DNA of 42,768 bases from Myxococcota bacterium (GTDB taxonomy: Bacteria > Myxococcota_A > Polyangia > Polyangiales > Houyiibacteriaceae), in the NCBI GenBank assembly GCA_039814655.1, contig JBCCAW010000002.1:1-42768 (forward strand). Direction: 5' to 3'. Each line of letters starts with the position of its first letter. Position 1 is the stretch's first letter. The notes under the pieces are model-generated. The model was not told the DNA's origin, ran no database searches, and worked only from the letters and a program-made list of their open reading frames with translations. The translations under genes and the position numbers were made by a program. Below are positions 1,176 to 40,204 of this stretch, in pieces.

Positions 1176-1236
1176 CACGACTCACTCGCAGCGACTGGCC
1201 ATCAACCCTCCCCTTTTGAAGACGTTTGGCGCCCGC

Positions 1237-15136: not shown

Positions 15137-15341
15137 AGCGTCGCCGCGCGGTGGCGCCGCTGCCTTCGCGCCTGCCTGGAAATTTTTTCTCAGCTCCGCA
15201 CCGAGTTCCGCCGCAAGAGGCGCCCCGCCGCTCCAGGGCCGGGGCCCCCGCCGGCGTGAAGGAACCGAAATCATGAATGAAACACGCCACCGCGGCGGTC
15301 CTTGGCGGGGGGAACGGGCCTTGCACGGAGGTCACCTGCCC

Positions 15342-16109: not shown

Positions 16110-16759
16110 GGCGCCGGCTTCGGAGCGCATCCGCACGGCGCGGCGGGTTCACCATCATCGAGGTAATGATGGCCATCACGGTGCTCGCCATCGGCGCCGT
16201 CGGTCTCATGGGCCTCGTGCAGGCCACGGTGCGCGGCAACCAGCAGGGGCGACGCATCACGACGGCCACGCAGGTCGCGCGCACCTGGCTCGAGCGCGTG
16301 CGTACGGACACCATCGGCTGGACCACCAACACGCCCGGGGGCACGGCGACGACCTGCTACCTGCAGAACGCGCCGGCCGTGGCCGTGGGTGCCTCGTCGG
16401 GCTGGTTCGTGCCCCAGCCCGGTGGCGCCAACTGCGTCGACGTGGGCGGGCTCCCGGCGGCCTCCGAGGTGGGCATCGCCGCCGGCGCGGCCTGGACCGG
16501 CGCGGACGCGGTGAACTCCTCCGGCATCGGCAACCAGGCCCGCTACTGCACGCTGCTTCGCGTCACCTGGGTCGTCGCCGGCGAGATGCTTCGCGCCGAC
16601 GTGCGCACCTGGTGGGACGACAGCAGCGAGGCGCAGCTCGCGCCGAACTGCGGCCTCGGCAACGAGGCGGACATCGTGGCCGAGCTCGACGGCCCCATCG
16701 AAGACACGACGCTGCGCTCCGTGGAGACCTCCACGCTCGTGCGCTGGAGGCAGCAATGA
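16106..16759 (+). CDS. pilV: Minor pilin, PilV-like
   Basis: MRRRLRSASARRGGFTIIEVMMAITVLAIGAVGL prepilin motif. The ATG overlaps the upstream stop (ATGA). Confidence 0.7.
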   Translation: MRRRLRSASARRGGFTIIEVMMAITVLAIGAVGLMGLVQATVRGNQQGRRITTATQVARTWLERVRTDTIGWTTNTPGGTATTCYLQNAPAVAVGASSGWFVPQPGGANCVDVGGLPAASEVGIAAGAAWTGADAVNSSGIGNQARYCTLLRVTWVVAGEMLRADVRTWWDDSSEAQLAPNCGLGNEADIVAELDGPIEDTTLRSVETSTLVRWRQQ

Positions 16760-17970
16760 ACGCGCATCGCACGCGGCCGGCGCGCCGAGGAGGCGGCCGG
16801 CGCGAGGCTGGCTTCACGCTGCTCGAGCTCATGACGGCGCTCGTGGCCGGGCTCGTGGCGGTCACGGCGACCTATCTCATCAGCGCCGAGACCTCGCGCC
16901 ACTTCAACGAGCAGGCCCGCGTCGCGCAAACGCAGACCAGCGTGCGCATGGCCATGGAGCAGCTCCGCCGGGACATTGCTCGCGCGGGCTTCTTCGGTAC
17001 GCCGAACACGCAGACCGAGCAGCGCTGCGTGAACGCGGCCTTCAACTACGGCGCCCTCGCCTACCAGGACGGCGCAGGCACGGCCGCGCTTCCCCTCGCG
17101 GGCGTCAACAACGTCGAAGCCGACCAGCTCACGCTCGTCGGCAACTACGCGACGAGCGACGGCTACCTCGCGCGCCCCGCCGGCGCCGCGAACAACGCGG
17201 TCATCGTCCAGGAAGGCTGGCAGGCCTTCCGGCGGAGCTTCGGGGCCCCGGAGATCCCCGCCGGCGGCGCCGGGTTCACGGCCAACGCCTACGACCCGAA
17301 CTTCTTCCAGGCGGTCTTCAGCCAGGACAACCAGCTCCATATCGAGACCACCGCGGGCAACCACTTCTTCGTGGCCATCCAGGGCAGCACCGGGGTGAAC
17401 CGGCAGGTGGCCTTCGCGCCGGGGACGCCGCCCAACCCGGACTGCGGCGACCTCACGGGGTCCACGGTCGCGCCGCTCTCGCGCATTCGCTACCGCGTGC
17501 TGGACCCGGCGGCGGACGCGCGCTTCGCCGCCCTCGTGAACCCGACGGATGCGGCCCGCGGCATCACCAACTCGGTGCTCATCCGCGAGCAGATTCAGTT
17601 CAACGGCGCGGACACGGTGGTCCCGGGCACCGAGCGCGTCATTCTCGAGTACGTCGCCAACTTCTCGCTCACCTTCGTCGTCGACAACCGGGCGCCGCCC
17701 TTCGCTGGGCCGCCCAACCTGGTGCTCCTCGACGACACGCAGGGCGCCCAGGCCTTCCTCGCCGCCAACCCGGAGCGCGTGCGCTCGGTCATCGTGGATC
17801 TCAGCGCGCGCACGCCGGACGCGGACCCGGGCTTCCGGCCCCTCGCGGGCAACCGTGACCCGGCCGCCAACGGGCCACTCACGCGCTACCGGGTCATTCC
17901 CAACCTCGACGCCGCCGCCCGCGTCCGCAGCATCCGGAGCGAAATCTTTCTCCCGAACGTCGCTCCCTGA
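16756..17970 (+). CDS. pilW: Minor pilin, PilW-like
   Basis: EAGFTLLELMTALVAGLVAVTATYLI prepilin motif; 404 aa. ATGA overlap with the pilV-like stop. Confidence 0.7.
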   Translation: MNAHRTRPARRGGGRREAGFTLLELMTALVAGLVAVTATYLISAETSRHFNEQARVAQTQTSVRMAMEQLRRDIARAGFFGTPNTQTEQRCVNAAFNYGALAYQDGAGTAALPLAGVNNVEADQLTLVGNYATSDGYLARPAGAANNAVIVQEGWQAFRRSFGAPEIPAGGAGFTANAYDPNFFQAVFSQDNQLHIETTAGNHFFVAIQGSTGVNRQVAFAPGTPPNPDCGDLTGSTVAPLSRIRYRVLDPAADARFAALVNPTDAARGITNSVLIREQIQFNGADTVVPGTERVILEYVANFSLTFVVDNRAPPFAGPPNLVLLDDTQGAQAFLAANPERVRSVIVDLSARTPDADPGFRPLAGNRDPAANGPLTRYRVIPNLDAAARVRSIRSEIFLPNVAP

Positions 17971-17987
17971 TCCCCGGCTTTTTCGTC

Positions 17988-18668
17988 ATGCGTACTTCCC
18001 CGACCCATCGCTCCATTCGCTCTCGTCGCCAGCAGCGCGTTGCCCGCCAACAGGGCGCCGCCATGCTCGTCGTGATGCTCGTGCTCCTCATGGGCACGGC
18101 CACGGGAATCTACGCGGCGCACCAGACCACCTTCGAGATTCGCGCGGCCGGGCATCTCCGCCAGGCCATGCAGACCGAATACGTGGGGCTCACCGGGGCG
18201 GCGGCGGCGCTGGGGTGGACGGACCAGTTCCGGGCGAGCGGACTCAACCAAGCCATGGAGCGGACGACGCAGCTGCAGGGGGGCGCGCCGGCGCTCGACC
18301 TCGCGCCCTTCGAGCCGCCCATGCTGCCGGGCAAGCGGGCCTACCGGCTCTACGCCGGTGACTTCGCGCTGGCCTTCCAGGGCACCATCACGGACCCGGA
18401 CGCATCGGCGGCGGCGCTCGGCGCGCACACGCCCTACGTGCCCACGCACACCGTGGACGTCTACGACGACTACCGGACCACGCGGCCCGTGCCCGGCGCA
18501 CCGGCCGACGGCCGGGCAGAGCTCGTCTACCTGAACGCCACCTACACGGCGCGCGGGCGCTCCGGCGTGCCGGGGCTCGCGGCCAACGTCGGCCCCGACG
18601 GCCGGCCCTTCTTCGAGGTGTCGAGCGATTCCCGCGCCTACGGGCGCTCCGGACCCATGGGCCTCTGA
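17988..18668 (+). CDS. pilX: PilX-like minor pilin / pilus assembly protein
   Basis: RQQGAAMLVVMLVLLMGTATGIYA is a PilX_N-type hydrophobic N-terminus lacking the G-F-T-x-x-E motif. It sits between the pilW-like and pilY1-like genes. Confidence 0.6.
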   Translation: MRTSPTHRSIRSRRQQRVARQQGAAMLVVMLVLLMGTATGIYAAHQTTFEIRAAGHLRQAMQTEYVGLTGAAAALGWTDQFRASGLNQAMERTTQLQGGAPALDLAPFEPPMLPGKRAYRLYAGDFALAFQGTITDPDASAAALGAHTPYVPTHTVDVYDDYRTTRPVPGAPADGRAELVYLNATYTARGRSGVPGLAANVGPDGRPFFEVSSDSRAYGRSGPMGL

Positions 18669-18679
18669 GGCGGATTGTC

Positions 18680-21600
18680 ATGAACGGACTCACCCAACAC
18701 ACGACCCGCCTGCTCGCAGCCCTCGGCCTCGCGCTCGCTTCGGCCAGCGTGGCGCCGACGCCGGCGGCGGCGCAGAACGACATCCGGGACATCCCGCCGC
18801 TGGTCACGCTCCTCGTCGACACGTCGAGCTCCATGCAGCGCCTCGGCGCCTGCGAGTGCGACACGTCGACGGATCCGGCGTGCCGGGGCTGCCTCCCGGA
18901 GTGCACCACGGGCACGCCGGAGCGGAACCGCTGGTGGACCGTCGTCGAGGCGCTGACGGGCACCTTCGCCGACTTCAGCTGCTCCGTCGAAGACCGGGAC
19001 GCGCCTTCCTACGCTGGCGAGCCCGACTACACGGACCCGATCCCGCACGTGCGCGCCGGCGGCATCGCGTGCCTGTCGAACTCGGACTGCCCCGGCGCGC
19101 TCACCTGCCTGAGCGACGGCGCAACGCAGGGTCTCTGCCAGGAAGAGGACGGCATTCTGGACATCTACCGCGAGCGCGTTCGCTTCGGGTTCATGACCTT
19201 CGACACCGGGGACACCTTCCTCAGCGGTCCGGGCATCAACATCGAGAACGAGCTCGTGACGCGCGCCCTTTACCAGTCGCGCATCGGCGAAGAGTCCACG
19301 GCCATGGGCACCTACTCCTACGGCGAGGCTCGGCCCTTCAGCTTCCCGGGCTGCGGTGAGCCCTACATGATCAACAACGGCGTCCGGACCTACCGGGCCG
19401 ACGGCGGCTCGCTCATCTCGAGCGGTCGCGAGGGCGTCGACGACCTCGTGACCATCAACCAGCTCATCCAGGAGTCGCTCCTGGACCCCTCGCTGCGCCC
19501 CACGGGGGCGACGCCAGTCGCGGGCATGCTCGAGGACCTCGACTTCTACTTCGACAACGACCCGGACGTGAGCCCCATTCGCGCCGGGACGCTCGGCTCC
19601 GGTGACCCCTTCAACGCCTGCCGCGCGCGCTACGCCATCCTGCTCACGGACGGAGCGCCGAACGCGGACATGCGCGACTCCACGGTCAACTGCGAAGCCA
19701 TGGGCAACGGCGTGGGCGAGCTCGGCTGCCCCTACGACACGCCGGTGAACACGGCGGCGCGCCTCGTCACCGAGGGCGACATCCAGGCGCTCTATGTCGT
19801 GGGCTTCAACGTGACGGCGGACAACTGCCCTTCCGGCGTGGCCGGGGACCGCTGCCGGCAGAACGCCGCGGACGCCATCGCCGAGCTCGATGCCATCGCC
19901 GACGCGGGCAACACGGGCTCGGCGATCTTCGCGGACGACCGGGCGACGCTGATCGCGGCGCTGGCAACCATCATCGACGAGTCGGCCCCGGGCACGACCT
20001 CGCGCACGCAGCCCGCCTTCGCGAACACTGGCTCCTCGACGGGCGCGGTGAACAGGCAGATTCAGCTCAACACGGGCTTCAACGTGTCCCGGGAGGCCGG
20101 CGAGCCCTGGACCGGCGTGCTCGAGCGGCGCCGCTTCGAGTGCGACGGGCTCACCGTGGAAGAGCAGCCCGTGCTTCCCACGGACCGCTTCCAGAACGTG
20201 TTGAACGCACAGACCGGCGCGCCGGGATCGGGCTCCGAACCGCGCCGCCTGCTGACCGTCGTGGCGCCCACGCTGCCGCCCTTCCTCGACTTCTACGGCG
20301 ACGGGCAGGCCGATCTCCAGGCGCGCTCCCCGACGCCGCCGCTCCCGCCGACGGGGCTGCCGACCAACGCGCTTCAGGTCGGGCTCGATCTGCAGGCCTT
20401 CGGGCTGAGCAACCCGGCGCTGACGCCGGAGGTGCTGGGCCTGGACGACCCGCTGCTCTCCGGGGCCGAGCAGCTGCTGGCGCTGCAGAACACCTTCGAG
20501 TGGATGCAGGGCCTCGCGGGGACCGCGCGTGACGGGCGACGGCTCGGCTCCATCGTGCATTCGTCGCCGGTGGTCGTCGGGCCCCCGAGCCTCGACATCG
20601 CCGACGAGGACTACAACCTCTTCCGCGAGCGCGTGGGCGAGCGGCCCACGGTGACCTATGTGGGCACCAACGACGGGCTAATGCACGCCTTCCTCACGGA
20701 GGACTACGAGGTGCCGGCCACGGACCCGGACTTCGCGGGCCTGAACATCACCGCGGGAACGGAGCTCTGGGGCTTCGTGCCGCCGGTGCTGCTGCGTCAG
20801 CTCCCGGACGTGCAGGACGCGCCGCGGGCCATGGTGGACGCCACGCCGGTCGTCCGCGACGTCTTCGACGCGCGGCTCCTCGGGCAGATCGCCTCCGGCG
20901 ACGCCTACCGCACGGTCATGGTCTCGGGCCTCCGGGCCGGCGCCCCGGCCTTCTTCGCCCTCGACGTCACGGACCCCTTCCGGCCCGAGTTCCTCTGGCA
21001 GTACACGGACCCGGGCATGCTCGGGGAGACCTACGGGGAGCCCACGCTGGCGCAGGTGCGCGTCGAGTTCGGGAGCGTGACCCACGAGCGCGGCATCGCG
21101 ATTCTCCCGGGCGGAAAGGGCACCCAGGACCTGACGCTCGGCGGCGTCGACCTGGACGGCGACGGCACGCCGGAGACCTCCCCGGCGTGCTCCGTTCCGG
21201 CGAACGCCGTGGGCCTCACGCCGGAGCGCGGGGAGGCCGGGCGCACCGACCGCCGCTGCTGGATGCCCGACGAGGGCCGGGCGCTGGTCATCCTGGACCT
21301 GGCCACCGGCGCCGTCCTCCGCTCCTGGGATGCCGCGACCTTCCCGGCGCCCCTCGCCGGCGGCGTCTCCGCCTTCCCCGGCGACACGGGCAACATCGCC
21401 ACGCGCGCCTTCGTGACCGACGAGGACGGCGTCATCTGGCGCATCGACCTGTCCGAACCGGACCCGGACGACTGGGAGGTCTCGGCCTTCTACGACATGT
21501 TCCATGGCCTGGGCTACGCGGCGGGTCAGCCGGCCTTCGGCCCGCCGGTGCTCAGCACCGACGAGGACGGCAACGTGGTCATCCTTCACGGCACCGGTGA

Positions 21601-22240
21601 CATCGACCGCCTCGAGAACCCGGGCGTTCGGAACCGCATCGTGTCCTTGACGGAGCAGATCACCTTCGACGACGCGACGGGGGCGGTGACGGATGTGGGC
21701 GCGCGCCTCAACTGGGAGATCACCCTGGACGAGGGCGAGCTCGTGACCGGGCCCCTGGAGCTCTTCAACGGGGAGGTCTTCTTCGGCACCTTCACGAGCA
21801 CCACGGACATCACCAACGCCTGCGAGTTCGGCTTCAGCCGCATCTGGGGCGTGCAGTATATCGAGAGCGAGCCGGCCGTGAGCACGGACCCGGCGCCGGC
21901 CCTCGAGTCCACGCCGGGGTCGGGCATCCAGGACGTGACGAACCTCGGCCCCGGCGACTCGCCGGGCCTCGACAACCGGCTCGTGCTCGGTGTGTCGGTC
22001 ACCGAGCGGCCCAACTGCGCGCTCCGCGACGAGGTCAGCGAAACGGACCCCTACATCGGCACACGACAGACCGTGCGTATGCGGCAGGTCGCGCCGCCGA
22101 CCTTCGAGCTCGTGGCTCAGCTCTCCGGCGGTCCCGGCGGGGGCGGTGCCGGCGGGGGCTCGGTGCAGGAGTTCAACCGTGAGCTGCCGCCGCCGGTCGG
22201 GTACACGACGCAACGCGCGCTCCTCGGCATCGTCGACTGA
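18680..22240 (+). CDS. pilY1: PilY1-like type IV pilus tip adhesin with N-terminal vWA domain
   Basis: 1186 aa. Signal peptide ..ASASVAPTPAAAQ. MIDAS DxSxS motif (LLVDTSSSM, D-T-S-S-S at 18818-18832). C-terminal beta-propeller-like region with a Ca-binding-like loop DLDGDGTPE (21149-21175). Position after the pilVWX-like genes supports the call. Confidence 0.8.
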   Translation: MNGLTQHTTRLLAALGLALASASVAPTPAAAQNDIRDIPPLVTLLVDTSSSMQRLGACECDTSTDPACRGCLPECTTGTPERNRWWTVVEALTGTFADFSCSVEDRDAPSYAGEPDYTDPIPHVRAGGIACLSNSDCPGALTCLSDGATQGLCQEEDGILDIYRERVRFGFMTFDTGDTFLSGPGINIENELVTRALYQSRIGEESTAMGTYSYGEARPFSFPGCGEPYMINNGVRTYRADGGSLISSGREGVDDLVTINQLIQESLLDPSLRPTGATPVAGMLEDLDFYFDNDPDVSPIRAGTLGSGDPFNACRARYAILLTDGAPNADMRDSTVNCEAMGNGVGELGCPYDTPVNTAARLVTEGDIQALYVVGFNVTADNCPSGVAGDRCRQNAADAIAELDAIADAGNTGSAIFADDRATLIAALATIIDESAPGTTSRTQPAFANTGSSTGAVNRQIQLNTGFNVSREAGEPWTGVLERRRFECDGLTVEEQPVLPTDRFQNVLNAQTGAPGSGSEPRRLLTVVAPTLPPFLDFYGDGQADLQARSPTPPLPPTGLPTNALQVGLDLQAFGLSNPALTPEVLGLDDPLLSGAEQLLALQNTFEWMQGLAGTARDGRRLGSIVHSSPVVVGPPSLDIADEDYNLFRERVGERPTVTYVGTNDGLMHAFLTEDYEVPATDPDFAGLNITAGTELWGFVPPVLLRQLPDVQDAPRAMVDATPVVRDVFDARLLGQIASGDAYRTVMVSGLRAGAPAFFALDVTDPFRPEFLWQYTDPGMLGETYGEPTLAQVRVEFGSVTHERGIAILPGGKGTQDLTLGGVDLDGDGTPETSPACSVPANAVGLTPERGEAGRTDRRCWMPDEGRALVILDLATGAVLRSWDAATFPAPLAGGVSAFPGDTGNIATRAFVTDEDGVIWRIDLSEPDPDDWEVSAFYDMFHGLGYAAGQPAFGPPVLSTDEDGNVVILHGTGDIDRLENPGVRNRIVSLTEQITFDDATGAVTDVGARLNWEITLDEGELVTGPLELFNGEVFFGTFTSTTDITNACEFGFSRIWGVQYIESEPAVSTDPAPALESTPGSGIQDVTNLGPGDSPGLDNRLVLGVSVTERPNCALRDEVSETDPYIGTRQTVRMRQVAPPTFELVAQLSGGPGGGGAGGGSVQEFNRELPPPVGYTTQRALLGIVD

Positions 22241-26514: not shown

Positions 26515-27543
26515 TTAGCTCGAGCGGACGGCCAAGCGGTCGGCCACGGCCTTCAGCAGGGTCACACCCTCCGCCGAAAAGGGCGCGCCCTCGAGGGCGC
26601 CGTGGGCCGCGGCGAGGAGCGTCTTCAGCCGCGCCTCGACGTTGGCCTTGGCGCCGCTCGAGACGAGGAGCGCCGAGGCGGCTTCGAGGGCCGGCTCGGA
26701 GCGATCCTGTCCGCCGATGACCTGGTCGAGGGCGTCGCGCTGGCCCGCCGGGAGCAGGCGCTCGGCCTCGGCGACGAGACAGGTGCGCTTGCCGTTGCGG
26801 AGGTCGTTGCCGGGCTTTCCCGTGGCGCCCTGGTCGCCGAAGGTGCCGAGCAGATCGTCGGCGAGCTGAAAGGCCTCGCCGAGGGGGTTTCCGTAGGCGA
26901 GGAACGCCGCCATGGCCTCGGCGCTCGCGTCGCCGAGCAGACCGCCGAGGCGCAGGGGCCCGCGCACCGTGTAGGAGCCGGTCTTCAGGTCGTGCATGCG
27001 CGAGACGTCGGGGTTGGCCGTGAGATCGAGGTGATGGCCGAGGATGACTTCCTTCTGGATGCGGAGGAACGCCTCCATGGCCTCGCCGCGCCGGGCGGCG
27101 GGGAAGGGCGCCTCGACGAAGAGCTCGAAGGCGTAGGCGCTGCCGATGTCGCCGGCGAGAATGGCGAGGCTGTCGGCGAGGTGGCCTTCGTGGCGGTCGC
27201 GGAAGGCCGCGTGCACCGCGGGGCCGCCGCGGCGCTCGTCGTCCTGGTCCATCCAGTCGTCGTGGATCAGTAGGTAGCTCTGGAGCAGCTCGAGGGCTGC
27301 GCCGGCGCTCACGGTGTCGCTCAGCGGGCGCTCCGGGGCGACGCACGCCGTGGCCGCCGCGAGCACGACGGGGCGGAAGCGCTTGCCGCCGCGAAGCGTG
27401 AGGTCGCGAATTCCCTCGACGAGCTCGACGCTCTCCGGGGAGATGGCCGTGGCTTCGGCCACCTTGAGCTCGAAGTAGGCGGCAAGCTTCGCGTCCACGA
27501 GGTCGCGAACGCGGGGGAGAAAGTCGGCGAGGGTCTCGGACAT
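26515..27543 (-). CDS. Polyprenyl diphosphate synthase (GGPP/FPP synthase family)
   Basis: First Asp-rich motif LLIHDDWMDQDDERRG, second Asp-rich motif FQLADDLLG, and GKRFRP near the N-terminus. Confidence 0.85.
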   Translation of the reverse strand: MSETLADFLPRVRDLVDAKLAAYFELKVAEATAISPESVELVEGIRDLTLRGGKRFRPVVLAAATACVAPERPLSDTVSAGAALELLQSYLLIHDDWMDQDDERRGGPAVHAAFRDRHEGHLADSLAILAGDIGSAYAFELFVEAPFPAARRGEAMEAFLRIQKEVILGHHLDLTANPDVSRMHDLKTGSYTVRGPLRLGGLLGDASAEAMAAFLAYGNPLGEAFQLADDLLGTFGDQGATGKPGNDLRNGKRTCLVAEAERLLPAGQRDALDQVIGGQDRSEPALEAASALLVSSGAKANVEARLKTLLAAAHGALEGAPFSAEGVTLLKAVADRLAVRSS

Positions 27544-27791
27544 GGGGCGCTCCGGGGCGGCGCGAGGGCAGGCCTGGGGCCGGGCAGGCGAGCTGCGGCG
27601 CGCGAGGCGCGGGCGTAGCCTTCGACGTGCCCGTGGGCAAGGGCGCTTCGGCCCCTGCGGCTCGCGACCGCGGGAGCGCAGCTCGGCCCGCGCTCGTCAC
27701 GGTCCGGCGGGGCGCCGCTTGCGTCACACCGCCGGCTGGTGGACGTCATCGTGCGGCCCCACGGTCCCCTCCCATGAGCCGCGGAGACACC

Positions 27792-28862
27792 ATGAGCAGC
27801 GAAGCGTCCAACGTCCTCGACATCGGCCAGCGCAAGGCCGACCACCTCGACCTCTGCGCCACCGACGCCGTGGCCTTCAAGAAGGTGACGACGCTCCTCG
27901 AGGAGGTGCGGCTGGTGCATCAGTCGCTTCCGGACCTCGACGTCGATAGCGTGGACCTGTCGACGACGCTGCTCGGCAAGACGCTCCGGGCGCCCATCGT
28001 CATCGCGGCCATGACCGGCGGCCACGAGCGGGCGGCGGAGGTGAACCACACGCTTGCCTCCATCGCGAACGACCGGGGCTACGGCTTCGGCCTCGGGTCC
28101 CAGCGAGCCATGCAGAAGCGTCCCGACACGGCCTGGACCTTCCAGGTGCGGGAGAAGGCGCCGGACGTGCTGCTGATGGGCAACGTGGGCGTGGTGCAGG
28201 CGCGGGACATGGACGTGGAGATCATCGCGACGATGATCGAGCAGGTCGGGGCCGACGCGCTCTGCGTGCACCTGAACCCGGCCATGGAGCTCGTGCAGCC
28301 CGGCGGCGACCGGGACTTCACGCGGGGCACGGAGACCATCGCGCGCCTCGTGAAGGCGCTGCCCGTGCCCGTGGTGGGCAAGGAGACGGGCAACGGCATC
28401 AGCGTGGAGACGGCGCGGAAGCTCCGCGACGCGGGCGTCAGCACCGTGGACACGAGCGGCGCCGGCGGCACGAGCTGGGTGGGTGTGGAGACGCTCCGGG
28501 CCGAGGGCGATCAGAAGACGCTGGGCGAGATGCTCTGGGATTGGGGCGTGCCGACGGCGGCGAGCGTGCACAACGTGGTGCGCTGCGGCATGCACGCCAT
28601 CGCGACCGGCGGCATGAAGAACGGCTACGACGTGGCTCGGGCCATCGCGCTCGGCGCGAGCGCCGGGGGATTCGCGCGGCAGGTGTTCCAGGCCTTCGTG
28701 AGTGGCGGCCGCGACGGCGCCGAGGCCTTCTTGAACCGGGTGGAGAACGAACTCCGGGCGGTGATGCTCCTGAGCGGAGCGCAGACCGTGGACGAGCTCC
28801 GCCGCGCCCCGCGCATGATCGGCCCCCAGCTCCGCGAATGGATGACCCTCACCGACCGCTGA
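27792..28862 (+). CDS. fni: Type 2 isopentenyl-diphosphate delta-isomerase (FMN-dependent)
   Basis: QRKADHLDLC, AAMTGG, VGKETGNGIS and DTSGAGGTSW match IDI-2 signatures. ATG 27792 has GGAG 5 nt upstream; an alternative ATG is at 27774. Confidence 0.85.
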   Translation: MSSEASNVLDIGQRKADHLDLCATDAVAFKKVTTLLEEVRLVHQSLPDLDVDSVDLSTTLLGKTLRAPIVIAAMTGGHERAAEVNHTLASIANDRGYGFGLGSQRAMQKRPDTAWTFQVREKAPDVLLMGNVGVVQARDMDVEIIATMIEQVGADALCVHLNPAMELVQPGGDRDFTRGTETIARLVKALPVPVVGKETGNGISVETARKLRDAGVSTVDTSGAGGTSWVGVETLRAEGDQKTLGEMLWDWGVPTAASVHNVVRCGMHAIATGGMKNGYDVARAIALGASAGGFARQVFQAFVSGGRDGAEAFLNRVENELRAVMLLSGAQTVDELRRAPRMIGPQLREWMTLTDR

Positions 28863-28869
28863 GCGCTGA

Positions 28870-28960
28870 GGGGACGGACCCGACCAACCGAACAAACGCC
28901 CCCAAAACCCGTGTGGTTTCAAGCCCGCATCGGGGACGGACCCGACTAACCGAACCAAGG
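28870..28960 (+). repeat. Left arm of a roughly 91-nt inverted repeat flanking sctS, with two direct copies of a 27-nt core
   Basis: Core GGGGACGGACCCGACYAACCGAAC occurs at 28870 and 28932. The whole arm matches the reverse complement of 29279-29370 along most of its length, apart from a divergent central segment. Confidence 0.85.
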
Positions 28961-28989
28961 CCCCGGGCCCCGGCACCCGCGGGCCCTGG

Positions 28990-28995
28990 TACGCT
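28990..28995 (+). promoter_or_regulatory. -10-like hexamer TACGCT, 6 nt upstream of the sctS ATG (candidate leaderless promoter)
   Basis: Reads GGTACGCT-TCCCCC-ATG. This fits TAnnnT with no SD. It lies between the left repeat arm and sctS. Confidence 0.3.
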
Positions 28996-29001
28996 TCCCC
29001 C

Positions 29002-29271
29002 ATGAACGGGGCGGAGCTCGGGAGGCTGGCGGCGGAAGCCCTGTACCTGGTGCTGCTCGTCTCGGCCCCGGCTCTGCTCGTGAGCCTCGCCGTCGGCCTG
29101 AGCGTCGGACTTCTCCAGGCCGTGACCCAGGTGCAGGAGCAGACGCTGAGCTTCGTGCCGAAGCTCGCAGGCGTCGCCATCGCGCTCGTCGTGGGCGGCG
29201 GCTGGATGGGCGCGCAGCTGATTCGCTTCACGTCGCGGCTCTGGGAGAGCCTGCCGCTGCTCTTCCCATGA
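29002..29271 (+). CDS. sctS: Type III secretion export-gate protein SctS (FliQ/YscS family)
   Basis: 89 aa. LLVSAPALLVSLAVGLSVGLLQAVTQVQEQTLSFVPKLAGVAIAL is an almost textbook FliQ/YscS core (QA.TQ.QEQTL.FVPK). Confidence 0.9.
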   Translation: MNGAELGRLAAEALYLVLLVSAPALLVSLAVGLSVGLLQAVTQVQEQTLSFVPKLAGVAIALVVGGGWMGAQLIRFTSRLWESLPLLFP

Positions 29272-29278
29272 TCGCGCG

Positions 29279-29370
29279 CTTGGTTCGCTTAGTCGGGTCC
29301 GTCCCCGCTGCGGGGCCCGAGATGATTGGGGTTTCGGGGGCGGTTGGTTCGGTTAGTCGGGTCCGTCCCC
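29279..29370 (-). repeat. Right arm of the inverted repeat flanking sctS (two copies of the core in reverse orientation)
   Basis: GTCGGGTCCGTCCCC occurs at 29291-29305 and 29356-29370. The arm lies wholly within the 117-nt sctS-sctT spacer. Confidence 0.85.
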
Positions 29371-29388
29371 TTGCTTGAGGCGGTGTTG

Positions 29389-30174
29389 ATGGTGCTGGGG
29401 CTCGAGGATGGGCGGGTCCTTTCCCTCGGGGCGCTCACGGCGGCACGCGTGGCGCCGCTCACCGTCGTCGCGCCCTGGCTCATGGTGCGCGACGCGCCGG
29501 CCCTGGTGCGGAGCGGCGTCATTTTGGCGCTCACCGTCGCCTTCGCGCCCTTGGCCTTCGCCTCGGCGCCGGCGACGCTCCAGGTGCCCTTCGTCGTCGC
29601 GCTGGTTCGCGAAGGCCTCATCGGCACCTGCTTTGCCTTCGCGACGGCGCTGCCCTTCTACGCCTTCGATTTCGCCGGCCGCCTCGTCGACACCTGGCGC
29701 GGCGCCGGCCTCGCCGAGGTCATCGCGCCCCCGACGGGCGAACGCACGAGCCCCCTCGGCGACCTCCAGCTCCTCGCCGCCGTCGCGCTCTTCGCCACGC
29801 TCGGAGGCCACCGCCTCGCGCTCCTGGCCTTCGCCGAAGGCCTGACCATCGCGCCCGTCGGCGCCACGCCCCTCGCCGGAGGGACCGCGAGCGTGGCCCT
29901 CGGCGCCGCCGCGCTCTCGGGAGCCGCGCTGGCGTTCGCCGCCGCCGTTGCCGCGCCCGCCGCCGCCGCCATCGTGCTCGTGGAAGCGAGCCTCGGCCTC
30001 GTCGCCCGGGCCACTCCGCAGATTCCCGTCTTCTTCGCCGGCATGCCGCTCCGCGCCGCCGCGGGTCTCCTGGGCGCGCTACTCGCCGCCGCCGCCCTCG
30101 GCGACACGCTCGCGCCAGCCCTCGCCGAAGGGCTGCGCACGGCGACCGATTGGTTGCGGGCCTTTGCTCGCTGA
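29389..30174 (+). CDS. sctT: Type III secretion export-gate protein SctT (FliR/YscT family)
   Basis: 261 aa from ATG 29389 (the track ORF starts at 29326 inside the repeat). Polytopic membrane protein. LVREGLIGTCFAF..FDFAGRLVD and LVEASLGLVARATPQIPVFFAGMPLRAAAGLL match FliR/YscT blocks (..R..PQ.n.F..g.P.k). Position after sctS supports the call. Confidence 0.8.
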   Translation: MVLGLEDGRVLSLGALTAARVAPLTVVAPWLMVRDAPALVRSGVILALTVAFAPLAFASAPATLQVPFVVALVREGLIGTCFAFATALPFYAFDFAGRLVDTWRGAGLAEVIAPPTGERTSPLGDLQLLAAVALFATLGGHRLALLAFAEGLTIAPVGATPLAGGTASVALGAAALSGAALAFAAAVAAPAAAAIVLVEASLGLVARATPQIPVFFAGMPLRAAAGLLGALLAAAALGDTLAPALAEGLRTATDWLRAFAR

Positions 30175-30216
30175 CCCTTGACGGTGCGCCCCACCCGCCG
30201 GTTCACTCGGCGGCCC

Positions 30217-30774
30217 ATGGCCCGCATCGAGACGCTCATCGACGAGACCACCCTTCGTCACCGGGTCCAGCAGCTGGGCACGCAGATCACCGAAGACCAC
30301 GCCGAGCTCGAAAGCGAGCTCATGGTGGTGCCCGTGCTCACCGGGAGCTTCATCTTCGCGGCGGATCTGGTGCGCCACATCGACCTGCCGCTCTCCGTGG
30401 ACTTCCTCGGGCTCCGCTCCTACGTGGGCACGAGGTCGAGCGGCATCGTCGAGATCACCAAGGACCTCACGCGGAGCCTCACGGGCCGCCACGTGCTCAT
30501 CGTGGAGGACATCGTCGATACGGGGCTCACCATGCGCTACCTCCTCGAGAACCTCCGCACGCGACAGCCCGCCTCGGTCAAGCTCGCGTCGCTGCTGCAC
30601 AAGCCGGCGCGCACGGAGGTCGCCGTGGACATCGATTACCTCGGCTTCACCATCGAAGACGTCTTCGTCGTCGGCTACGGCCTCGACTTCGACCAGCGCT
30701 TTCGAAACCTCCCCTTCCTCGGCCTCGCGCATCCCGACGAAGCCCCCGGCGCCGCCCCCGAGTCCACGACGTGA
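30217..30774 (+). CDS. hpt: Hypoxanthine-guanine phosphoribosyltransferase
   Basis: [17 protein letters not shown]-binding motif [14 protein letters not shown], and [20 protein letters not shown] 30217. Confidence 0.88.
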
Positions 30775-37074: not shown

Positions 37075-37164
37075 GGTGCCACGGGGGGCCGTCCAGCGGC
37101 CTTCCGGTCAGGCTCACGGTGCCTCCCGTCGCCCGCGCACGCGCGTGTGCTAGGACCCGGCGCC

Positions 37165-38106
37165 ATGAGCGGTTTCGTCGGGCGGGGCCGAGGCAAGGTC
37201 ATCCTCCTCGGCGAGCACAGCGTGGTCTACGGCCGGCCGGCGCTGGCCGCGGGCCTCGAGCGTGGGGTGCAAGCGAGGGTCCGCGCTGCCGACGCCGACG
37301 CCATGCAGCTTTCGCCGTGGGAGGTGCGCGTCACGCCGGCGCAAGGAGACGAGCCCCTCGGCCAGGCGCTCGCGGCGGCGCTCGCCCTCTACGCCGAGCG
37401 CAGCACCGGGGCCGCCGTGCAGGTCCAGGTGGGGCTCCCCGGTGGCGCCGGCCTCGGCTGCTCTGCGGCCATCGGCGTGGCGGTGATCGAAGCGCTCGAC
37501 GGCCTCTACGGCGTGCCACGAACGCCGGCGGAGCGGGGTGACGCCTCCCTCGCCTGGGAGAAGGTCTTCCACGGCTCGCCCTCCGGCGTGGACAACGCCG
37601 TTGCCGCCGTGGGCGGCGTGGTGCGCTTCGTGCGCGGCCAAGGCGTGAGGCCCGTGGCCTTCGGCCGGCCCTTGCCCCTCGTGGTGGCCCACAGCGGCAT
37701 CGCCTCGAGCACCAAGGTCGTCGTCGATGGCGTACGCGAGCGCTGGACCGCGAACCGGCCGGCCATGGAGCGGATCTTCGACGCCATCGCCGGCCTCGTC
37801 GACCGGGCGGAGACGGCGCTCGCGGCCGGCGAGCTCGACGTGCTGGGCGGGCTCATGAACGACAACCAGCGCGAGCTCGAAGCCATGGGCGTGAGCACGC
37901 CGGCGCTCGAGGCGCTGGTGGCCGAGGCCCGGGCCGCCGGCGCCCTTGGGGCGAAGCTGACCGGGGCCGGCGGCGGCGGCTGCATGGTGGCGCTCGCTCC
38001 CGACTCAGCCACCGCCGCGCGCATCGAGGCGCGGCTGGCCGCGCGGGCGTCGATGACCTTCACCACCACCGTTGGCGGCGACGCCGACGCGGGAGACGAC
38101 ACGTGA
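37165..38106 (+). CDS. mvk: Mevalonate kinase
   Basis: GKVILLGEHSVVYGRPALA, GHMP motif GLPGGAGLGCSAAIGVA, and KLTGAGGGGCMVAL. ATG 37165. Confidence 0.85.
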   Translation: MSGFVGRGRGKVILLGEHSVVYGRPALAAGLERGVQARVRAADADAMQLSPWEVRVTPAQGDEPLGQALAAALALYAERSTGAAVQVQVGLPGGAGLGCSAAIGVAVIEALDGLYGVPRTPAERGDASLAWEKVFHGSPSGVDNAVAAVGGVVRFVRGQGVRPVAFGRPLPLVVAHSGIASSTKVVVDGVRERWTANRPAMERIFDAIAGLVDRAETALAAGELDVLGGLMNDNQRELEAMGVSTPALEALVAEARAAGALGAKLTGAGGGGCMVALAPDSATAARIEARLAARASMTFTTTVGGDADAGDDT

Positions 38107-39107
38107 CGCACCTCGACGGCAAGGCCCGCGCTACGGCGCGCGCCAACATCGCGCTGGCCAAGTACTGGGGCAAAGCCGACGTCGCCCTGAACCTCCCGGC
38201 GGTGCCGAGCATCTCCCTCACCCTCGACGGCCTGGTGACGCGCACGAGCGTGCGCTTCGACCGGCGCCTCGACGCGGACGAGGTGGAGCTCGACGGGCGC
38301 CCGGCGACGGCGAAGGAGAGCGCGCGCGTGGTCGAGCTACTCGACCGGGTGCGCGCGGCGGCGAAGGCGGAGACGCGGGCGAAGGTCGTCAGCAACAACC
38401 GCTTCCCGACGGCGGCGGGGCTCGCTTCGAGCGCCAGTGGCTTCGCGGCGCTGGCGGCGGCGGCGAGCCACGCGGCGGGCCTCGGCTGGGGCCTCCGCAA
38501 GGTGAGCAGCGAGGCCCGGCGCTCGAGCGCCAGCGCGGCCCGGAGCGTCTATGGCGGCTTCGCCGAGCTGCCCGCGGGCAAGCAGCGCAAGGATGGCCGC
38601 TGGGACGGCTTCCTGCCGGCCAAGGCGCTGCACGGCCCGGAGCATTGGGACCTGCGCCTCGTGGTCGCGGAGACCGCCCGCGGGCCGAAGAAGGTCGGCT
38701 CGACCGAGGGCATGGAGCGCTCGCGAACGACCTCGCCCTATTACGACGCCTGGGTGAGGGAGGCGCCGGCGTGGGCCGACCAGCTCCGGAAGGCGCTGAA
38801 GCGTCGGGACCTCCCGGGCGTCGGTGAGGCCATGGAGCGGAGCACGCTCGCCTTCCACACCTGCGCCATCACCGCGTATCCCTCGATCCTCTACTGGCAG
38901 GCGCCGACGGTGGCGGTGCTCCACGCGGTGCGGGAGCTGCGCGAGGCCCGGGGCCTCGCCTGCTGGGCCACCATGGACGCGGGCCCGCACGTGAAGGTGC
39001 TCTGCGCCGCCGCGGACGCGCGGAAGATCCGCGCGGCGCTGAAGCGGGTCGAGGGCGTGACGGGAACGCTCGTGTGCAAGCCCGGCGCGGGCATCGAGGT
39101 CGCGTGA
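38103..39107 (+). CDS. mvaD: Diphosphomevalonate decarboxylase
   Basis: ARANIALAKYWGKADVALNLPAVPSISLTL and NNRFPTAAGLASSASGFAALA. GTG 38103 overlaps the mvk stop (GTGA). Confidence 0.85.
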   Translation: MTHLDGKARATARANIALAKYWGKADVALNLPAVPSISLTLDGLVTRTSVRFDRRLDADEVELDGRPATAKESARVVELLDRVRAAAKAETRAKVVSNNRFPTAAGLASSASGFAALAAAASHAAGLGWGLRKVSSEARRSSASAARSVYGGFAELPAGKQRKDGRWDGFLPAKALHGPEHWDLRLVVAETARGPKKVGSTEGMERSRTTSPYYDAWVREAPAWADQLRKALKRRDLPGVGEAMERSTLAFHTCAITAYPSILYWQAPTVAVLHAVRELREARGLACWATMDAGPHVKVLCAAADARKIRAALKRVEGVTGTLVCKPGAGIEVA

Positions 39108-40204
39108 GCGGCGACGTCTCGCGCGGTTCCGTCTCGCGCGGCTCCGTTTCGCGAGGTGCCGTCTCGGCGCCGGGAAAGATGATGGTCGGCGGCGAGTACG
39201 CGGTGCTGGCTGGCGCGCCAGCGGTGGTCGCTGCGGTGCAGGCCCGAGCCCGGGTGCACTTCGTGACCGCCGCCGTGGCCGAGGCGCGTGAGACCGCCGC
39301 GGCCGCCCGCCACGAGGCCGGAGACGGCTGGGACGGGACCGCCATCGCGTCGCCGGAGCGCTTCCCCGAGGCCTTCGCCGCACGGCGACTCGCCGAGCAA
39401 GCGCTCGGCCCCGTGCCCGGGCGCCTCGCCGTCGACGTGTCCGCGCTCCGCCGGGCAGGGCAGAAGCTCGGCGTCGGCTCGAGCGCGGCGGCGGCGGCGG
39501 CGGCCTCGGCGGCCGTGCACGCGTGGCACGGCGCCGACGTAGCGGCCCCGGAGGTGCGGGCGCGCGCCCTCCGCTTCGCCCTCGAGGGGCACCGGGAAGT
39601 GGCCCCGCGCGGTTCCGGCGCCGACGTGGCGGCGGCAGCGCTCGGCGGCTTCGTGCGCTTTCGGCGCCCCGGCGGCGTGGAGGATCCCGCCTACGAGGCC
39701 GCGGCCCTTCCCGCGCCCGAGGGGCTCTCGCTACGCGTGGTCTGGACCGGCGAGGCGGCCAGCACGCGGGAGCTCATCGCGAAGGTCGAAGCGCTCCGCG
39801 TGAAGGACCCGGCGCTCCACGGCCGGTGCATGGACCGGCTCGCGGACGAGGCGGCGGCCTTCGTGAGCGCCTTCGAGACCGGCGTCGCGCGTCCCGTCGT
39901 GGACGCGGCGGCGCGCTACCACGCCGCGATGAAGGCGCTGGGCGAGGCGGCGGACGCGCCCATCGTCGAAGCGCGCCTCGACCGGGCGGCGACGCTCGCC
40001 GCGGCCCACGGAGGCGCCGCAAAACCGAGCGGAGCCGGCGGCGGCGACGTGGCCTTGGCCTTCTTCGAGTCGGGCGCCGAAGCCGACGCCTTCACGGCCG
40101 CGGCGGCTAGCGCGGGTCTTACGCCGCTGGCCCTCCGCCTCGGCGGCCCCGGCCCGCTCCCCGGGGACGAGCCCTCGAAAGACGAGGCTGCCGAGGACGT
40201 CTAG
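39104..40204 (+). CDS. mvaK2: Phosphomevalonate kinase (GHMP/ERG8-type)
   Basis: SAPGKMMVGGEYAVLAGAPAVV, GQKLGVGSSAAAAAA, and KPSGAGGGDVALAF. GTG 39104 overlaps the mvaD stop (GTGA). Confidence 0.75.
   Translation: MSGDVSRGSVSRGSVSRGAVSAPGKMMVGGEYAVLAGAPAVVAAVQARARVHFVTAAVAEARETAAAARHEAGDGWDGTAIASPERFPEAFAARRLAEQALGPVPGRLAVDVSALRRAGQKLGVGSSAAAAAAASAAVHAWHGADVAAPEVRARALRFALEGHREVAPRGSGADVAAAALGGFVRFRRPGGVEDPAYEAAALPAPEGLSLRVVWTGEAASTRELIAKVEALRVKDPALHGRCMDRLADEAAAFVSAFETGVARPVVDAAARYHAAMKALGEAADAPIVEARLDRAATLAAAHGGAAKPSGAGGGDVALAFFESGAEADAFTAAAASAGLTPLALRLGGPGPLPGDEPSKDEAAEDV
39116..39166 (+). repeat. 3.4 x 15-bp in-frame tandem repeat (gtctcgcgcggytcc) encoding VSRGS-VSRGS-VSRGA at the PMK N-terminus
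   Basis: Units at 39116-39130, 39131-39145 and 39146-39160, plus a partial unit. It lies upstream of the first conserved PMK motif. Confidence 0.85.

What the first reader, a model, noticed from the sequence alone, without database searches (positions are those of the whole stretch)
28870..29370. sctS is bracketed by a roughly 90-bp nested inverted repeat built from four copies of a 27-nt core
The 139-nt fni-sctS spacer and the 117-nt sctS-sctT spacer carry the same element in opposite orientation. Left arm (28870-28960): GGGGACGGACCCGACCAACCGAACAAACGCCCCCAAAACCC...GCCCGCATCGGGGACGGACCCGACTAACCGAACCAAGG. Reverse complement of the right arm (29279-29370): GGGGACGGACCCGACTAACCGAACCAACCGCCCCCGAAACCCC...GCCCCGCAGCGGGGACGGACCCGACTAAGCGAACCAAG. 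Each arm holds two direct copies of the core GGGGACGGACCCGACYAASCGAAC, giving the order A-B-[sctS]-B'-A'. I saw no further copy of the core elsewhere in the 42.7 kb. The only content enclosed is the 270-nt sctS ORF plus its own -10-like box. Possible meanings, all inferred: (i) an invertible or excisable single-gene cassette acting as a phase switch for the export gate; (ii) a long-range RNA duplex that loops sctS out of a fni-sctS-sctT-hpt transcript for RNase III processing or stoichiometry control; (iii) four operator sites for a DNA-looping regulator; (iv) a REP/MITE-like element inserted twice.
Basis: partly seen in the sequence, partly recalled or inferred. Interest (0 to 1): 0.78.

Follow-up and report, generated by a model that had tools for sequence, protein, structure and literature searches.

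The report
Inverted repeat pair bracketing sctS
A small secretion-gate gene (sctS) and its own promoter are bracketed by two mirror-image copies of a 95-base spacer in one uncultured myxobacterial lineage; the repeat is real and unique to this locus but is decaying in the closest relatives, so it is a local curiosity and not a new system.

Summary
Four copies of a 24-27-nt core form two ~95-nt arms in the order A-B-[sctS]-B'-A', with none expected by chance and no other copy in the window.

What is there:
- The core is absent from reference genomes and viral contigs, and the arm from plasmids and phages. JGI metagenomes gave only two unrelated single hits. It is therefore not a REP/MITE family.
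- Only two metagenomic relatives (SctS 96-98% identical) carry the arms, at the same positions. Their inner arms no longer pair; the outer pairing survives in one.
- In the window the four cores were homogenised by gene conversion.
- Other Polyangia have a 1-13-nt sctS-sctT junction, so the right arm is an insertion that ends exactly at the sctT start codon.
- New finding: sctS has a conserved extended -10 box 6-9 nt before its start codon (19 of 24 loci). That implies a leaderless transcript starting inside the bracket.
- No recombinase lies in the 42.7 kb, and four assemblies show one orientation.

Best reading (about 0.35): the arms matter only in read-through transcripts from fni. There they form a ~90-bp duplex that loops out sctS, buries the sctT start and would be an RNase III target.

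Nearly as likely (about 0.3): it is a neutral inverted duplication. Interest is moderate to low.

The parts
27792..28862 (+). fni (type 2 isopentenyl-diphosphate isomerase); its stop codon lies 7 nt before the left arm
   Evidence: TIGR02151 E = 8e-112. The 356-aa form matches the L002 gene call and is found as an exact product in a second sample.
28857..28870 (+). 7-nt tandem duplication CGCTGAG-CGCTGAG that repeats the fni stop codon and abuts core A; L001 has a single copy
   Evidence: Sequence read directly; alignment A1.
28869..28964 (+). Left arm: core A, a degenerate central hairpin segment, then core B. It lies at -133 to -38 from the inferred sctS transcription start.
   Evidence: the repeat finder D1, I1, I2; orthologous arms in L001 and L002.
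28870..28896 (+). Core A (outer left), GGGGACGGACCCGACCAACCGAACAAA
28932..28958 (+). Core B (inner left), GGGGACGGACCCGACTAACCGAACCAA; its centre is about 57-58 nt upstream of the inferred start
28987..28995 (+). Extended -10-like promoter box TGG-TACGCT, 6 nt before the sctS ATG. This implies a leaderless sctS mRNA starting at about 29002, inside the bracket.
   Evidence: TAnnnT lies 5-9 nt before the start codon in 19 of 24 Polyangia-like loci, 14 of them with TGn, against a background rate of 0.4%. No Shine-Dalgarno sequence is present.
29002..29271 (+). sctS/fliQ, 89 aa, export-gate subunit
   Evidence: PF01313 E = 1.4e-28; TIGR01402 and TIGR01403.
29276..29371 (-). Right arm (B' then A' on the + strand). 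It fills the sctS-sctT spacer from 5 nt after the sctS stop to the first base of the sctT start codon.
   Evidence: the repeat finder D2, I1, I2. Relatives outside the clade have a 1-13-nt junction here.
29280..29306 (-). Core B' (inner right)
   Evidence: L001 and L002 share GGCCTC here where the window has GGACCC, so the window copy was overwritten by conversion.
29344..29370 (-). Core A' (outer right), 100% identical to core B over 27 nt; ends at the base before the sctT start codon
   Evidence: (I4).
29371..30174 (+). sctT/fliR; the start is most likely TTG 29371 (the gene caller used ATG 29389)
   Evidence: PF01311 E = 4e-39; start column shared with the L001 ATG and L002 GTG and with the xEALL N-termini of relatives.
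30178..30774 (+). hpt, 3 nt after sctT, probably co-transcribed
   Evidence: TIGR01203 E = 4e-56.

Best explanation
SHOWN
- A ~95-bp intergenic module (core, former hairpin, core) exists in two inverted copies.
- One copy follows the fni stop codon and lies upstream of sctS's own promoter.
- The other is inserted into the formerly tight sctS-sctT junction and ends exactly at the sctT start codon.
- The pair arose in the common ancestor of a small uncultured Polyangia clade.
- In this genome the four cores have since been homogenised by gene conversion.

INFERRED MECHANISM
- sctS-sctT(-hpt) is normally transcribed as a leaderless mRNA from the extended -10 promoter inside the bracket. That RNA carries only the right arm, which is unstructured on its own.
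- No terminator follows fni. Transcripts that read through from fni would therefore carry both arms.
- In those transcripts the arms pair into a nested, nearly continuous ~90-bp duplex (net about -95 kcal/mol). The duplex loops out sctS and buries the sctT start codon.
- It also contains perfect runs of 15-19 bp within longer near-perfect helices, the kind of double-stranded RNA that RNase III cuts.
- The bracket would thus work as an RNA-level insulator and processing site. It would uncouple the export-gate genes from fni read-through and keep SctT output low relative to SctS.
For: - Reality and uniqueness of the repeat.
- Duplex strength: whole region z = -10.6. Arm co-fold net -94.7 kcal/mol against about -86 +/- 5 total energy for shuffles. 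Inner and outer stems separately give z = -10.0 and -8.9.
- Each arm alone folds no better than shuffles (z = +1.9 and +0.9), so nothing competes with arm-to-arm pairing.
- Exact placement: the left arm begins 7 nt after the fni stop and the right arm ends at the base before the sctT start.
- No terminator-like site on the + strand between fni and sctS.
- The outer stem is still significant in L001 (net -22.5 kcal/mol, z = -4.5, 0 of 200 shuffles), with two double changes that keep pairs (AU to UA and AU to CG).
- In L001, 9 of 10 arm-to-arm transition mismatches are the type that stays G-U paired on the sense RNA.
- The window's paralogous arms are more alike (82%) than orthologous arms (76% and 67%), so complementarity has been actively restored.
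- The conserved leaderless promoter defines which transcripts carry both arms.
Against: - The main sctS promoter lies inside the loop, so the left arm is absent from the principal transcript. The model depends on unmeasured fni read-through.
- The inner stem has decayed in both relatives (L001 z = -1.5, L002 z = -0.3). L001's whole-arm net gain is only -22 kcal/mol, so any function is weakly conserved.
- The duplex is as stable on the antisense strand as on the sense strand in the window (-103.8 against -94.7).
- All four cores, including the direct copies A and B, are near-identical. Pairing does not require that; gene conversion or a sequence-specific ligand explains it better.
- The 9:1 wobble asymmetry rests on a 61%-identity alignment and could reflect strand-biased C-to-T mutation.
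- Only two or three comparator sequences exist.
- There are no expression data.
Confidence: 0.35

Rival explanations
1. Neutral relic. A local inverted duplication, for example by template switching during the rearrangement that placed fni next to sctS, persists without a selected function. Occasional gene conversion between the nearby copies keeps them alike in this genome, while they decay in the relatives.
For: - The arms are restricted to three closely related metagenomic lineages. They are absent from all other Polyangia loci (scores equal to shuffles).
- Between genomes the arms diverge by 24-33%, about the same as synonymous sites at 14-34%.
- L001's arms are only 61% alike, and the inner stems are lost in L001 and L002.
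- Conversion is demonstrable. Core B' is GGCCTC in both L001 and L002 but GGACCC in the window, like the window's other three cores. Core position 13 is A in L001-A, L001-B and L002-A but G in all four window cores.
- The same junction tolerates an unrelated palindromic insertion (164-nt spacer) in L009.
Against: - Both arms have been retained at exact positions in three lineages despite bacterial deletion bias.
- The outer stem remains significantly complementary in L001 with paired double changes.
- The arm ends coincide precisely with the fni stop and the sctT start.
- The single arms are unusually unstructured.
Confidence: 0.3
2. Four operator sites for a DNA-binding regulator. Two lie upstream of the sctS promoter (centres about -120 and -58) and two downstream (about +293 and +357). 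They would allow a repression or activation loop around the promoter and sctS.
For: - Four near-identical 27-mers, with 0-3 mismatches between them.
- Direct copies are spaced 62 and 64 bp apart, about six helical turns.
- They flank a conserved promoter.
- The first 12 nt, GGGGACGGACCC, are the best-kept block: 0-2 mismatches in all 9 cores compared across three genomes.
- A spaced motif of the form CRAC-N4-CGAMC is visible in the L001 cores (read).
Against: - No regulator gene was identified nearby.
- The last 15 nt of the cores differ by 4-8 positions in the relatives.
- Right-arm spacing is 55 bp in L001, so helical phasing is not kept.
- The segments between the cores are also homologous and complementary, which operators do not need.
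- The 8-mer GGGGACGG occurs only once elsewhere in the window, inside dnaN.
Confidence: 0.15
3. Invertible cassette. Recombination between the arms flips the promoter and sctS, which disconnects sctT-hpt from its promoter and acts as a phase switch.
For: - The inverted repeats enclose a promoter-bearing 311-bp segment, which is the architecture of known invertons.
- Gene conversion shows that the arms do recombine.
- Short-read assemblies break inside both arms. L002 has 10-N gaps in both. In SRR22824269 one contig ends at 28898 and the next starts at 29333. The longest exact inverted match is only 27 nt.
Against: - No invertase, integrase or transposase lies in 42.7 kb.
- Four independent assemblies all show the same orientation.
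- The arms are too diverged in L001 and L002 for a conserved site-specific system.
- sctS itself would stay expressed in either orientation.
Confidence: 0.12
4. Two independent insertions of a REP-like or MITE-like mobile element.
For: - The sctS-sctT junction has taken up a genuine palindromic element in L009.
- The source genome beyond this contig could not be searched.
Against: - There is no further copy anywhere that could be searched.
- Single arms have no hairpin, no terminal inverted repeats and no target-site duplication.
- The arms are vertically inherited at fixed positions in three lineages.
- Two hits on either side of one 270-bp gene, with none in the other 42 kb, would be a remarkable coincidence.
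Confidence: 0.05

Closest known systems
RNase III processing stalks of rRNA operons, where long-range inverted sequences bracket 16S and 23S rRNA (own knowledge)
   Same: Complementary sequences hundreds of nt apart bracket one functional unit within a longer transcript. They are predicted to form a long duplex with perfect runs of 15-19 bp.
   Different: - The bracketed unit here is a protein-coding gene with its own promoter inside the loop.
- No cleavage data exist.
- The stem is conserved only partly, and only within a tiny clade.
- rRNA stalks are universal and essential for maturation.
Long-range mRNA pairing that hides a downstream start site, as in the E. coli IF3-L35-L20 operon and the MS2 phage coat-replicase interaction (own knowledge)
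   Same: The distal arm abuts and would occlude the start codon of the next cistron (sctT). Translation or transcript architecture decides whether that start is exposed.
   Different: - The pairing partner lies upstream of the preceding gene's promoter, not inside a translated region.
- The ribosome-mediated opening that defines those systems is therefore not obviously available.
Invertible promoter elements (invertons): fimS of E. coli, hin of Salmonella, Bacteroides invertons (own knowledge)
   Same: Inverted repeats flank a ~311-bp segment that contains a promoter driving a downstream gene.
   Different: - The arms are 95 nt and imperfect, with internal direct repeats, instead of short exact sites of 9-30 bp.
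- A whole gene lies inside.
- There is no recombinase nearby.
- No second orientation has been seen.
Auxiliary-operator DNA loops: lac O1/O2/O3, gal OE/OI, deo (own knowledge)
   Same: Several copies of one sequence lie upstream and hundreds of bp downstream of a promoter.
   Different: - The sites are long (24-27 nt), non-palindromic and embedded in larger homologous arms.
- The regulator is unknown.
- The sites are poorly conserved in orthologous loci.
REP/BIME, REPIN and MITE elements such as Neisseria Correia elements (own knowledge)
   Same: Short GC-rich intergenic repeats that can form RNA duplexes and be cut by RNase III.
   Different: - The element is not dispersed; this is the only locus.
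- Each unit is not itself palindromic.
- There is no target-site duplication.
- It is vertically inherited.
IR/DR-type transposon ends, where each terminal inverted repeat holds two direct binding sites (Sleeping Beauty, Tn7, Mu) (own knowledge)
   Same: The formal layout A-B-[cargo]-B'-A'.
   Different: - There is no transposase and no target duplication.
- The 'cargo' sctS is syntenic with sctT in all relatives that lack the arms, so it did not arrive as a mobile unit.

Membership tests
REP / REPIN / MITE | Many dispersed copies per genome | tested here: not met
   There are 0 further copies in the 42.7-kb contig and 0 in 574 kb of related loci at up to 5 mismatches. Exact core-pattern scans found 0 in 185,579 reference genomes, 0 in viral contigs and only 2 unrelated singletons in JGI metagenomes. 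The rest of the source genome is unavailable.
REP / REPIN / MITE | Each unit is a hairpin (REP) or has terminal inverted repeats plus a target-site duplication (MITE) | tested here: not met
   Single arms fold no better than shuffles (z = +1.9, +0.9, -0.2, -1.3). No terminal inverted repeats or duplicated flank are seen.
Inverton / invertible promoter switch | Inverted repeats flanking a promoter-containing segment | tested here: met
   The arms enclose the conserved extended -10 box and sctS.
Inverton / invertible promoter switch | Both orientations present in the population | tested here: inconclusive
   The window, ERR4592245, L001 and L002 all have the same orientation. Assemblies break inside the arms in L002 and SRR22824269. 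Reads were not available.
Inverton / invertible promoter switch | Cognate site-specific recombinase, usually adjacent | tested here: not met
   Pfam scans of 30 ORFs across the window found no recombinase, integrase or transposase.
RNase III processing stalk / long-range mRNA duplex | Complementary flanks able to form a duplex of at least about 20 bp | tested here: met
   Co-fold net -94.7 kcal/mol. Inner stem z = -10.0 and outer stem z = -8.9.
RNase III processing stalk / long-range mRNA duplex | Both arms carried on one transcript, with mapped cleavage | not testable with these tools
   No terminator is predicted after fni, but the conserved promoter lies inside the loop. No RNA data were available.
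RNase III processing stalk / long-range mRNA duplex | Stem maintained across relatives by covariation | tested here: inconclusive
   The outer stem is kept in L001 (z = -4.5) with 2 double changes. The inner stem is lost in L001 (z = -1.5) and L002 (z = -0.3). Only 2-3 sequences exist.
Looping operator set | Repeated operator copies flanking a promoter and conserved in orthologous loci | tested here: inconclusive
   The window has four near-identical copies. In L001 and L002 the first 12 nt are kept (0-2 mismatches) but the last 15 nt differ at 4-8 positions. Spacing is 63 and 55 bp in L001.
Looping operator set | Identified cognate DNA-binding protein | not testable with these tools
   No candidate regulator lies next to the locus.
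CRISPR mini-array | Identical repeats separated by unrelated spacers, with a leader or cas genes | tested here: not met
   There are only two repeats per arm. The 'spacers' of the two arms are homologous (68%). No cas genes are present.
Known RNA families (Rfam 15) | Match to a curated covariance model | tested here: not met
   No hit at gathering thresholds in the window. Only chance-level hits (E > 5) appear in 28750-29500.

The most novel reading that the evidence does not exclude
The bracket is a functional single-gene switch for the type III export gate. It could act in either of two ways:
- as an inversion that flips the promoter and sctS and so silences sctT-hpt;
- as an RNA loop-out with RNase III processing that sets the SctS:SctT ratio. 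The known gate stoichiometry is about 4 SctS/FliQ to 1 SctT/FliR (own knowledge).

The assembly breaks inside both arms in two independent short-read data sets would then be traces of structural heterogeneity.
Probability: 0.12. Interest if true: 0.65.

Novelty: new variant of a known kind. Interest (0 to 1): 0.33.

Why it matters
- If the RNA model holds, this would be a natural case of a long-range mRNA duplex that insulates a promoter-bearing gene from upstream read-through. It would also tune the output of two subunits needed in unequal amounts in a secretion gate.
- If inversion occurs, it would be a phase switch acting on a core T3SS component.
- As the evidence stands, the finding mainly illustrates two things. 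A local inverted duplication can be kept near-perfect by gene conversion in one lineage while it decays in sister lineages. And striking complementarity in one genome is weak evidence of function.
- The more general by-product is the conserved leaderless-type promoter in front of an orphan sctS-sctT pair across Polyangia.

Tried and rejected
- Dispersed repeat family: rejected after scans of the window, all fetched loci, reference genomes, JGI metagenomes and viral contigs for the core, and of plasmids and phages for the arm.
- General 'sctS is bracketed by an inverted repeat' rule in Polyangia: rejected. In 28 related loci the flank complementarity equals shuffles, and only the window stands out (score 110 against about 22).
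- Self-contained structured RNA, terminator or riboswitch in each arm: rejected. The only terminator-like hit is on the minus strand at 28923-28901 and is within chance expectation.
- CRISPR-like mini-array: rejected, because the spacers are homologous and there are no cas genes.
- Composite transposon carrying sctS: rejected, because sctS-sctT synteny holds in relatives without the arms and there is no transposase or target duplication.
- Assembly artefact: rejected.
- Strand test for RNA-level selection: no asymmetry in the window (5:4; duplex energies similar on both strands), and 9:1 in L001 on a weak alignment. Suggestive only.
- More comparators: the SctS and SctT protein searches and the cluster look-up found only two other genomes of the clade.
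- Literature searches for a described analogue or for myxobacterial leaderless start-site maps returned nothing relevant.
- Direct evidence for inversion: exact-protein look-ups of SctS, SctT and Fni gave only forward-orientation or truncated contigs.
Full report

Yes. The core GGGGACGGACCCGACTAACCGAAC occurs four times with 0-1 mismatch. Two copies are on the + strand (28870, 28932) and two on the - strand (29283-29306, 29347-29370). There is no other copy in the 42,768 bases, and none appeared in 100 shuffles.

The repeat finder gives:
- nested inverted pairs 28869-28910 / 29330-29371 (83%) and 28924-28959 / 29279-29314 (94%);
- a perfect 27-nt cross-pair between core B and core A';
- direct copies 62 and 64 nt apart within each arm.

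Whole 95-nt arms are 82% identical after reverse-complementing one of them. Folded as RNA, 28855-29385 forms the nested long-range duplex around sctS at -339.9 kcal/mol, z = -10.6.

The repeat is not an assembly artefact. Contigs from another run (SRR22824269) are identical over the parts of both outer arms they cover. Two other metagenomes carry orthologous arms.

**2. Revised anatomy**

*sctT start.* sctT most likely starts at TTG 29371, not at the gene caller's ATG 29389. L001 has ATG and L002 has GTG in the same alignment column, and the encoded N-terminus (xEALL) matches relatives. The right arm therefore ends at the base before the sctT start codon. The left arm starts 7 nt after the fni stop.

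*Promoter inside the bracket.* The '-10-like box' is an extended -10 element, TGG-TACGCT at 28987-28995, 6 nt before the sctS ATG. There is no Shine-Dalgarno sequence. A TAnnnT hexamer lies 5-9 nt before the sctS start in 19 of 24 Polyangia-like loci, 14 of them with TGn. The background rate is 0.4%. The loci are related, so the P values overstate independence, but the flanks are otherwise unalignable. I infer that sctS is transcribed as a leaderless mRNA from its own promoter. The bracket thus encloses a promoter plus a gene, and the left arm (-133 to -38) is not part of that primary transcript.

*Right arm is an insertion.* In relatives outside the clade the sctS stop and the sctT start are usually 1-13 nt apart. 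The right arm was therefore inserted into a formerly tight junction.

**3. Distribution**

The core pattern has no exact match in one genome each of 185,579 species or in viral contigs. JGI metagenomes gave two hits. One lies inside a coding region of a mid-GC organism and the other is a lone copy in an unrelated context. The arm has no blastn match in plasmids or phages. At up to 5 mismatches the core appears nowhere else in 574 kb of fetched DNA.

SctS homologues place the organism among uncultured Polyangia/Sandaracinus-like Myxococcota. Only two other genomes belong to the close clade: L001 (SctS 98%) and L002 (96%). Both have both arms at the same positions. The next relatives (SctS 82% or lower) lack the arms. 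Across 28 loci the complementarity of the sctS flanks is no better than shuffles.

This rules out a dispersed REP/MITE family in all searchable data. It shows that the pair is a vertically inherited, clade-specific feature.

**4. Evolution of the arms**

Between the window and L001, third-codon positions differ by 34% in sctS and 14% in fni. Orthologous arms differ by 24% (left) and 33% (right), which is roughly neutral.

| Comparison | Identity |
|---|---|
| Window left vs window right (paralogous) | 82% |
| Window left vs L001 left (orthologous) | 76% |
| Window right vs L001 right (orthologous) | 67% |
| L001 left vs L001 right (paralogous) | 61% |

The window's two arms are more alike than either is to its orthologue.

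At the core level, the four window cores differ by 0-3 of 27 positions. The four L001 cores differ from each other by 7-14.

Two sites show that the window copies were overwritten:
- Core B' reads GGCCTC in both L001 and L002, but GGACCC in the window, like the window's other three cores.
- Core position 13 is A in L001-A, L001-B and L002-A, but G in all four window cores.

The segments between the cores keep arm-specific features shared with orthologues and are only 68% alike within the window.

Conclusion: the inverted duplication predates the three lineages, and gene conversion has homogenised the cores in the window lineage.

**5. Is the pairing conserved?**

Only partly.

| Stem | Window | L001 | L002 |
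|---|---|---|---|
| Inner, net kcal/mol (z) | -48.8 (-10.0) | -13.9 (-1.5) | -9.4 (-0.3) |
| Outer, net kcal/mol (z) | -53.4 (-8.9) | -22.5 (-4.5; 0 of 200 shuffles) | right arm lost in a scaffold gap |

RNAalifold on the window plus L001 keeps the outer and middle helices, with two double changes in the outer stem. In L001, 9 of 10 arm-to-arm transition mismatches are the type that remains G-U paired on the sense RNA. That hints at RNA-level constraint. However, it rests on a 61%-identity alignment and could reflect strand-biased C-to-T mutation. The window shows no strand asymmetry.

Each arm alone is no more structured than shuffled sequence. Rfam has no match. The arms are therefore not independent RNA elements or terminators.

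**6. Inversion?**

Pfam scans of 30 ORFs across the contig found no recombinase or transposase. They also found no other T3SS gene. The neighbours are mevalonate and carotenoid genes, dnaN, pilus genes, a protease and a RES toxin.

Four independent assemblies (the window, ERR4592245, L001 and L002) have the same orientation.

One observation remains unexplained. Short-read assemblies tend to break inside the arms:
- L002 has 10-N gaps in the middle of both arms.
- In SRR22824269 the fni contig ends at 28898 and the sctT contig starts at 29333.
- The longest exact inverted match is only 27 nt, which is shorter than the assembler's k-mer as I recall it (k = 31, own knowledge). Exact-repeat collapse therefore does not obviously explain the breaks.

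Coverage loss at a hairpin-prone GC-rich repeat and real heterogeneity are both possible. Only reads can decide.

**7. Most likely mechanism**

*Shown:* a conserved promoter lies inside the loop, no terminator-like signal follows fni on the + strand, the duplex potential is very strong, and the arms abut the fni stop and the sctT start.

*Inferred:*
- Leaderless sctS-sctT(-hpt) transcripts carry only the unstructured right arm and are expressed normally.
- Read-through transcripts from fni carry both arms. The arms pair, loop out sctS, bury the sctT start codon and offer an RNase III substrate.
- The bracket would insulate the export-gate genes from fni transcription and restrain SctT relative to SctS.

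I give this 0.35. A neutral relic maintained by conversion is nearly as likely (0.30). It is favoured by the clade restriction, near-neutral divergence and decay of the inner stems. Operator sites for a looping regulator get 0.15, an inversion switch 0.12 and a double mobile-element insertion 0.05.

**8. Comparison with known systems**

It works most like long-range RNA brackets, namely rRNA processing stalks and long-distance pairing that hides a downstream start site. Formally it resembles invertons and multi-operator loops. It meets no family definition in full (see the membership table). I class it as a new variant of a known kind: a gene-flanking inverted repeat or long-range duplex.

**9. 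Verdict**

The finding is real, locus-unique and anatomically neat. It is also confined to a tiny uncultured clade, evolutionarily unstable and without functional data. Interest is about 0.33. The most exciting reading still allowed is a single-gene switch for the export gate, at about 0.12 probability.

Noticed in passing
window 28987-29002; L001-L030 immediately upstream of sctS: A conserved extended -10 box (TGnTAnnnT) lies 5-9 nt before the sctS start codon in 19 of 24 Polyangia-like loci, with no Shine-Dalgarno sequence. sctS is probably expressed from a leaderless mRNA across this group.
   Followed up: yes
window 29002-30174 and the whole window; L001-L010: sctS-sctT stand alone. No sctR, sctU, sctV or other T3SS gene is present in 42.7 kb. 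In all relatives the pair sits next to hpt and a small TPR gene, so it is an orphan export-gate pair embedded among housekeeping genes.
   Followed up: partly
L003, L007, L008 versus the window and L001: Gene order differs between lineages. hpt-TPR lies upstream of sctS and divergent in the relatives at 82% identity or lower, but downstream of sctT and co-directional in the window clade. That is equivalent to an inversion of the sctS-sctT block. The left arm sits at the new fni-sctS junction.
   Followed up: partly
L009 4008-4171: An unrelated palindromic, MITE-like element with 38-nt terminal inverted repeats (89% complementary, 88 nt apart) fills the 163-164-nt sctS-sctT spacer. It is absent from L007, L008 and L010, which encode the identical SctS. 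The junction tolerates insertions.
   Followed up: partly
L002 3926-3935 and 4314-4323; L094 end (window 28898); L093 start (window 29333): Two independent short-read assemblies break inside both arms at roughly mirror-image positions, although the longest exact inverted match in the window is only 27 nt. The cause is unresolved: either coverage loss at the repeat or structural heterogeneity.
   Followed up: partly
window 28857-28870: A 7-nt tandem duplication, CGCTGAG-CGCTGAG, repeats the fni stop codon directly in front of core A. L001 has a single copy.
   Followed up: no
L001 3910-3936: The centre of L001's left arm is a perfect 11-bp hairpin (CCTCCGAAACC-CGAGT-GGTTTCGGAGG) just after fni. 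The window has only a degenerate version. It may be the ancestral fni 3' hairpin from which the module derives.
   Followed up: partly
window 5398-6512 (-): A RES-domain protein lies next to a small upstream ORF. This looks like a RES-Xre type toxin-antitoxin pair.
   Followed up: no
window 6-2247, 26515-28862, 37147-40204: Isoprenoid genes are scattered along the contig around dnaN and the sctS-sctT pair: lycopene cyclase, a Rieske/DUF5914 protein, polyprenyl synthase, fni, and a mevalonate-pathway block of GHMP kinases and diphosphomevalonate decarboxylase.
   Followed up: no
window 15273-22240 (+): A cluster of N-methylation-motif (minor pilin-like) proteins and a 1186-aa PilY1-domain protein, which looks like a type IV pilus tip module.
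   Followed up: no
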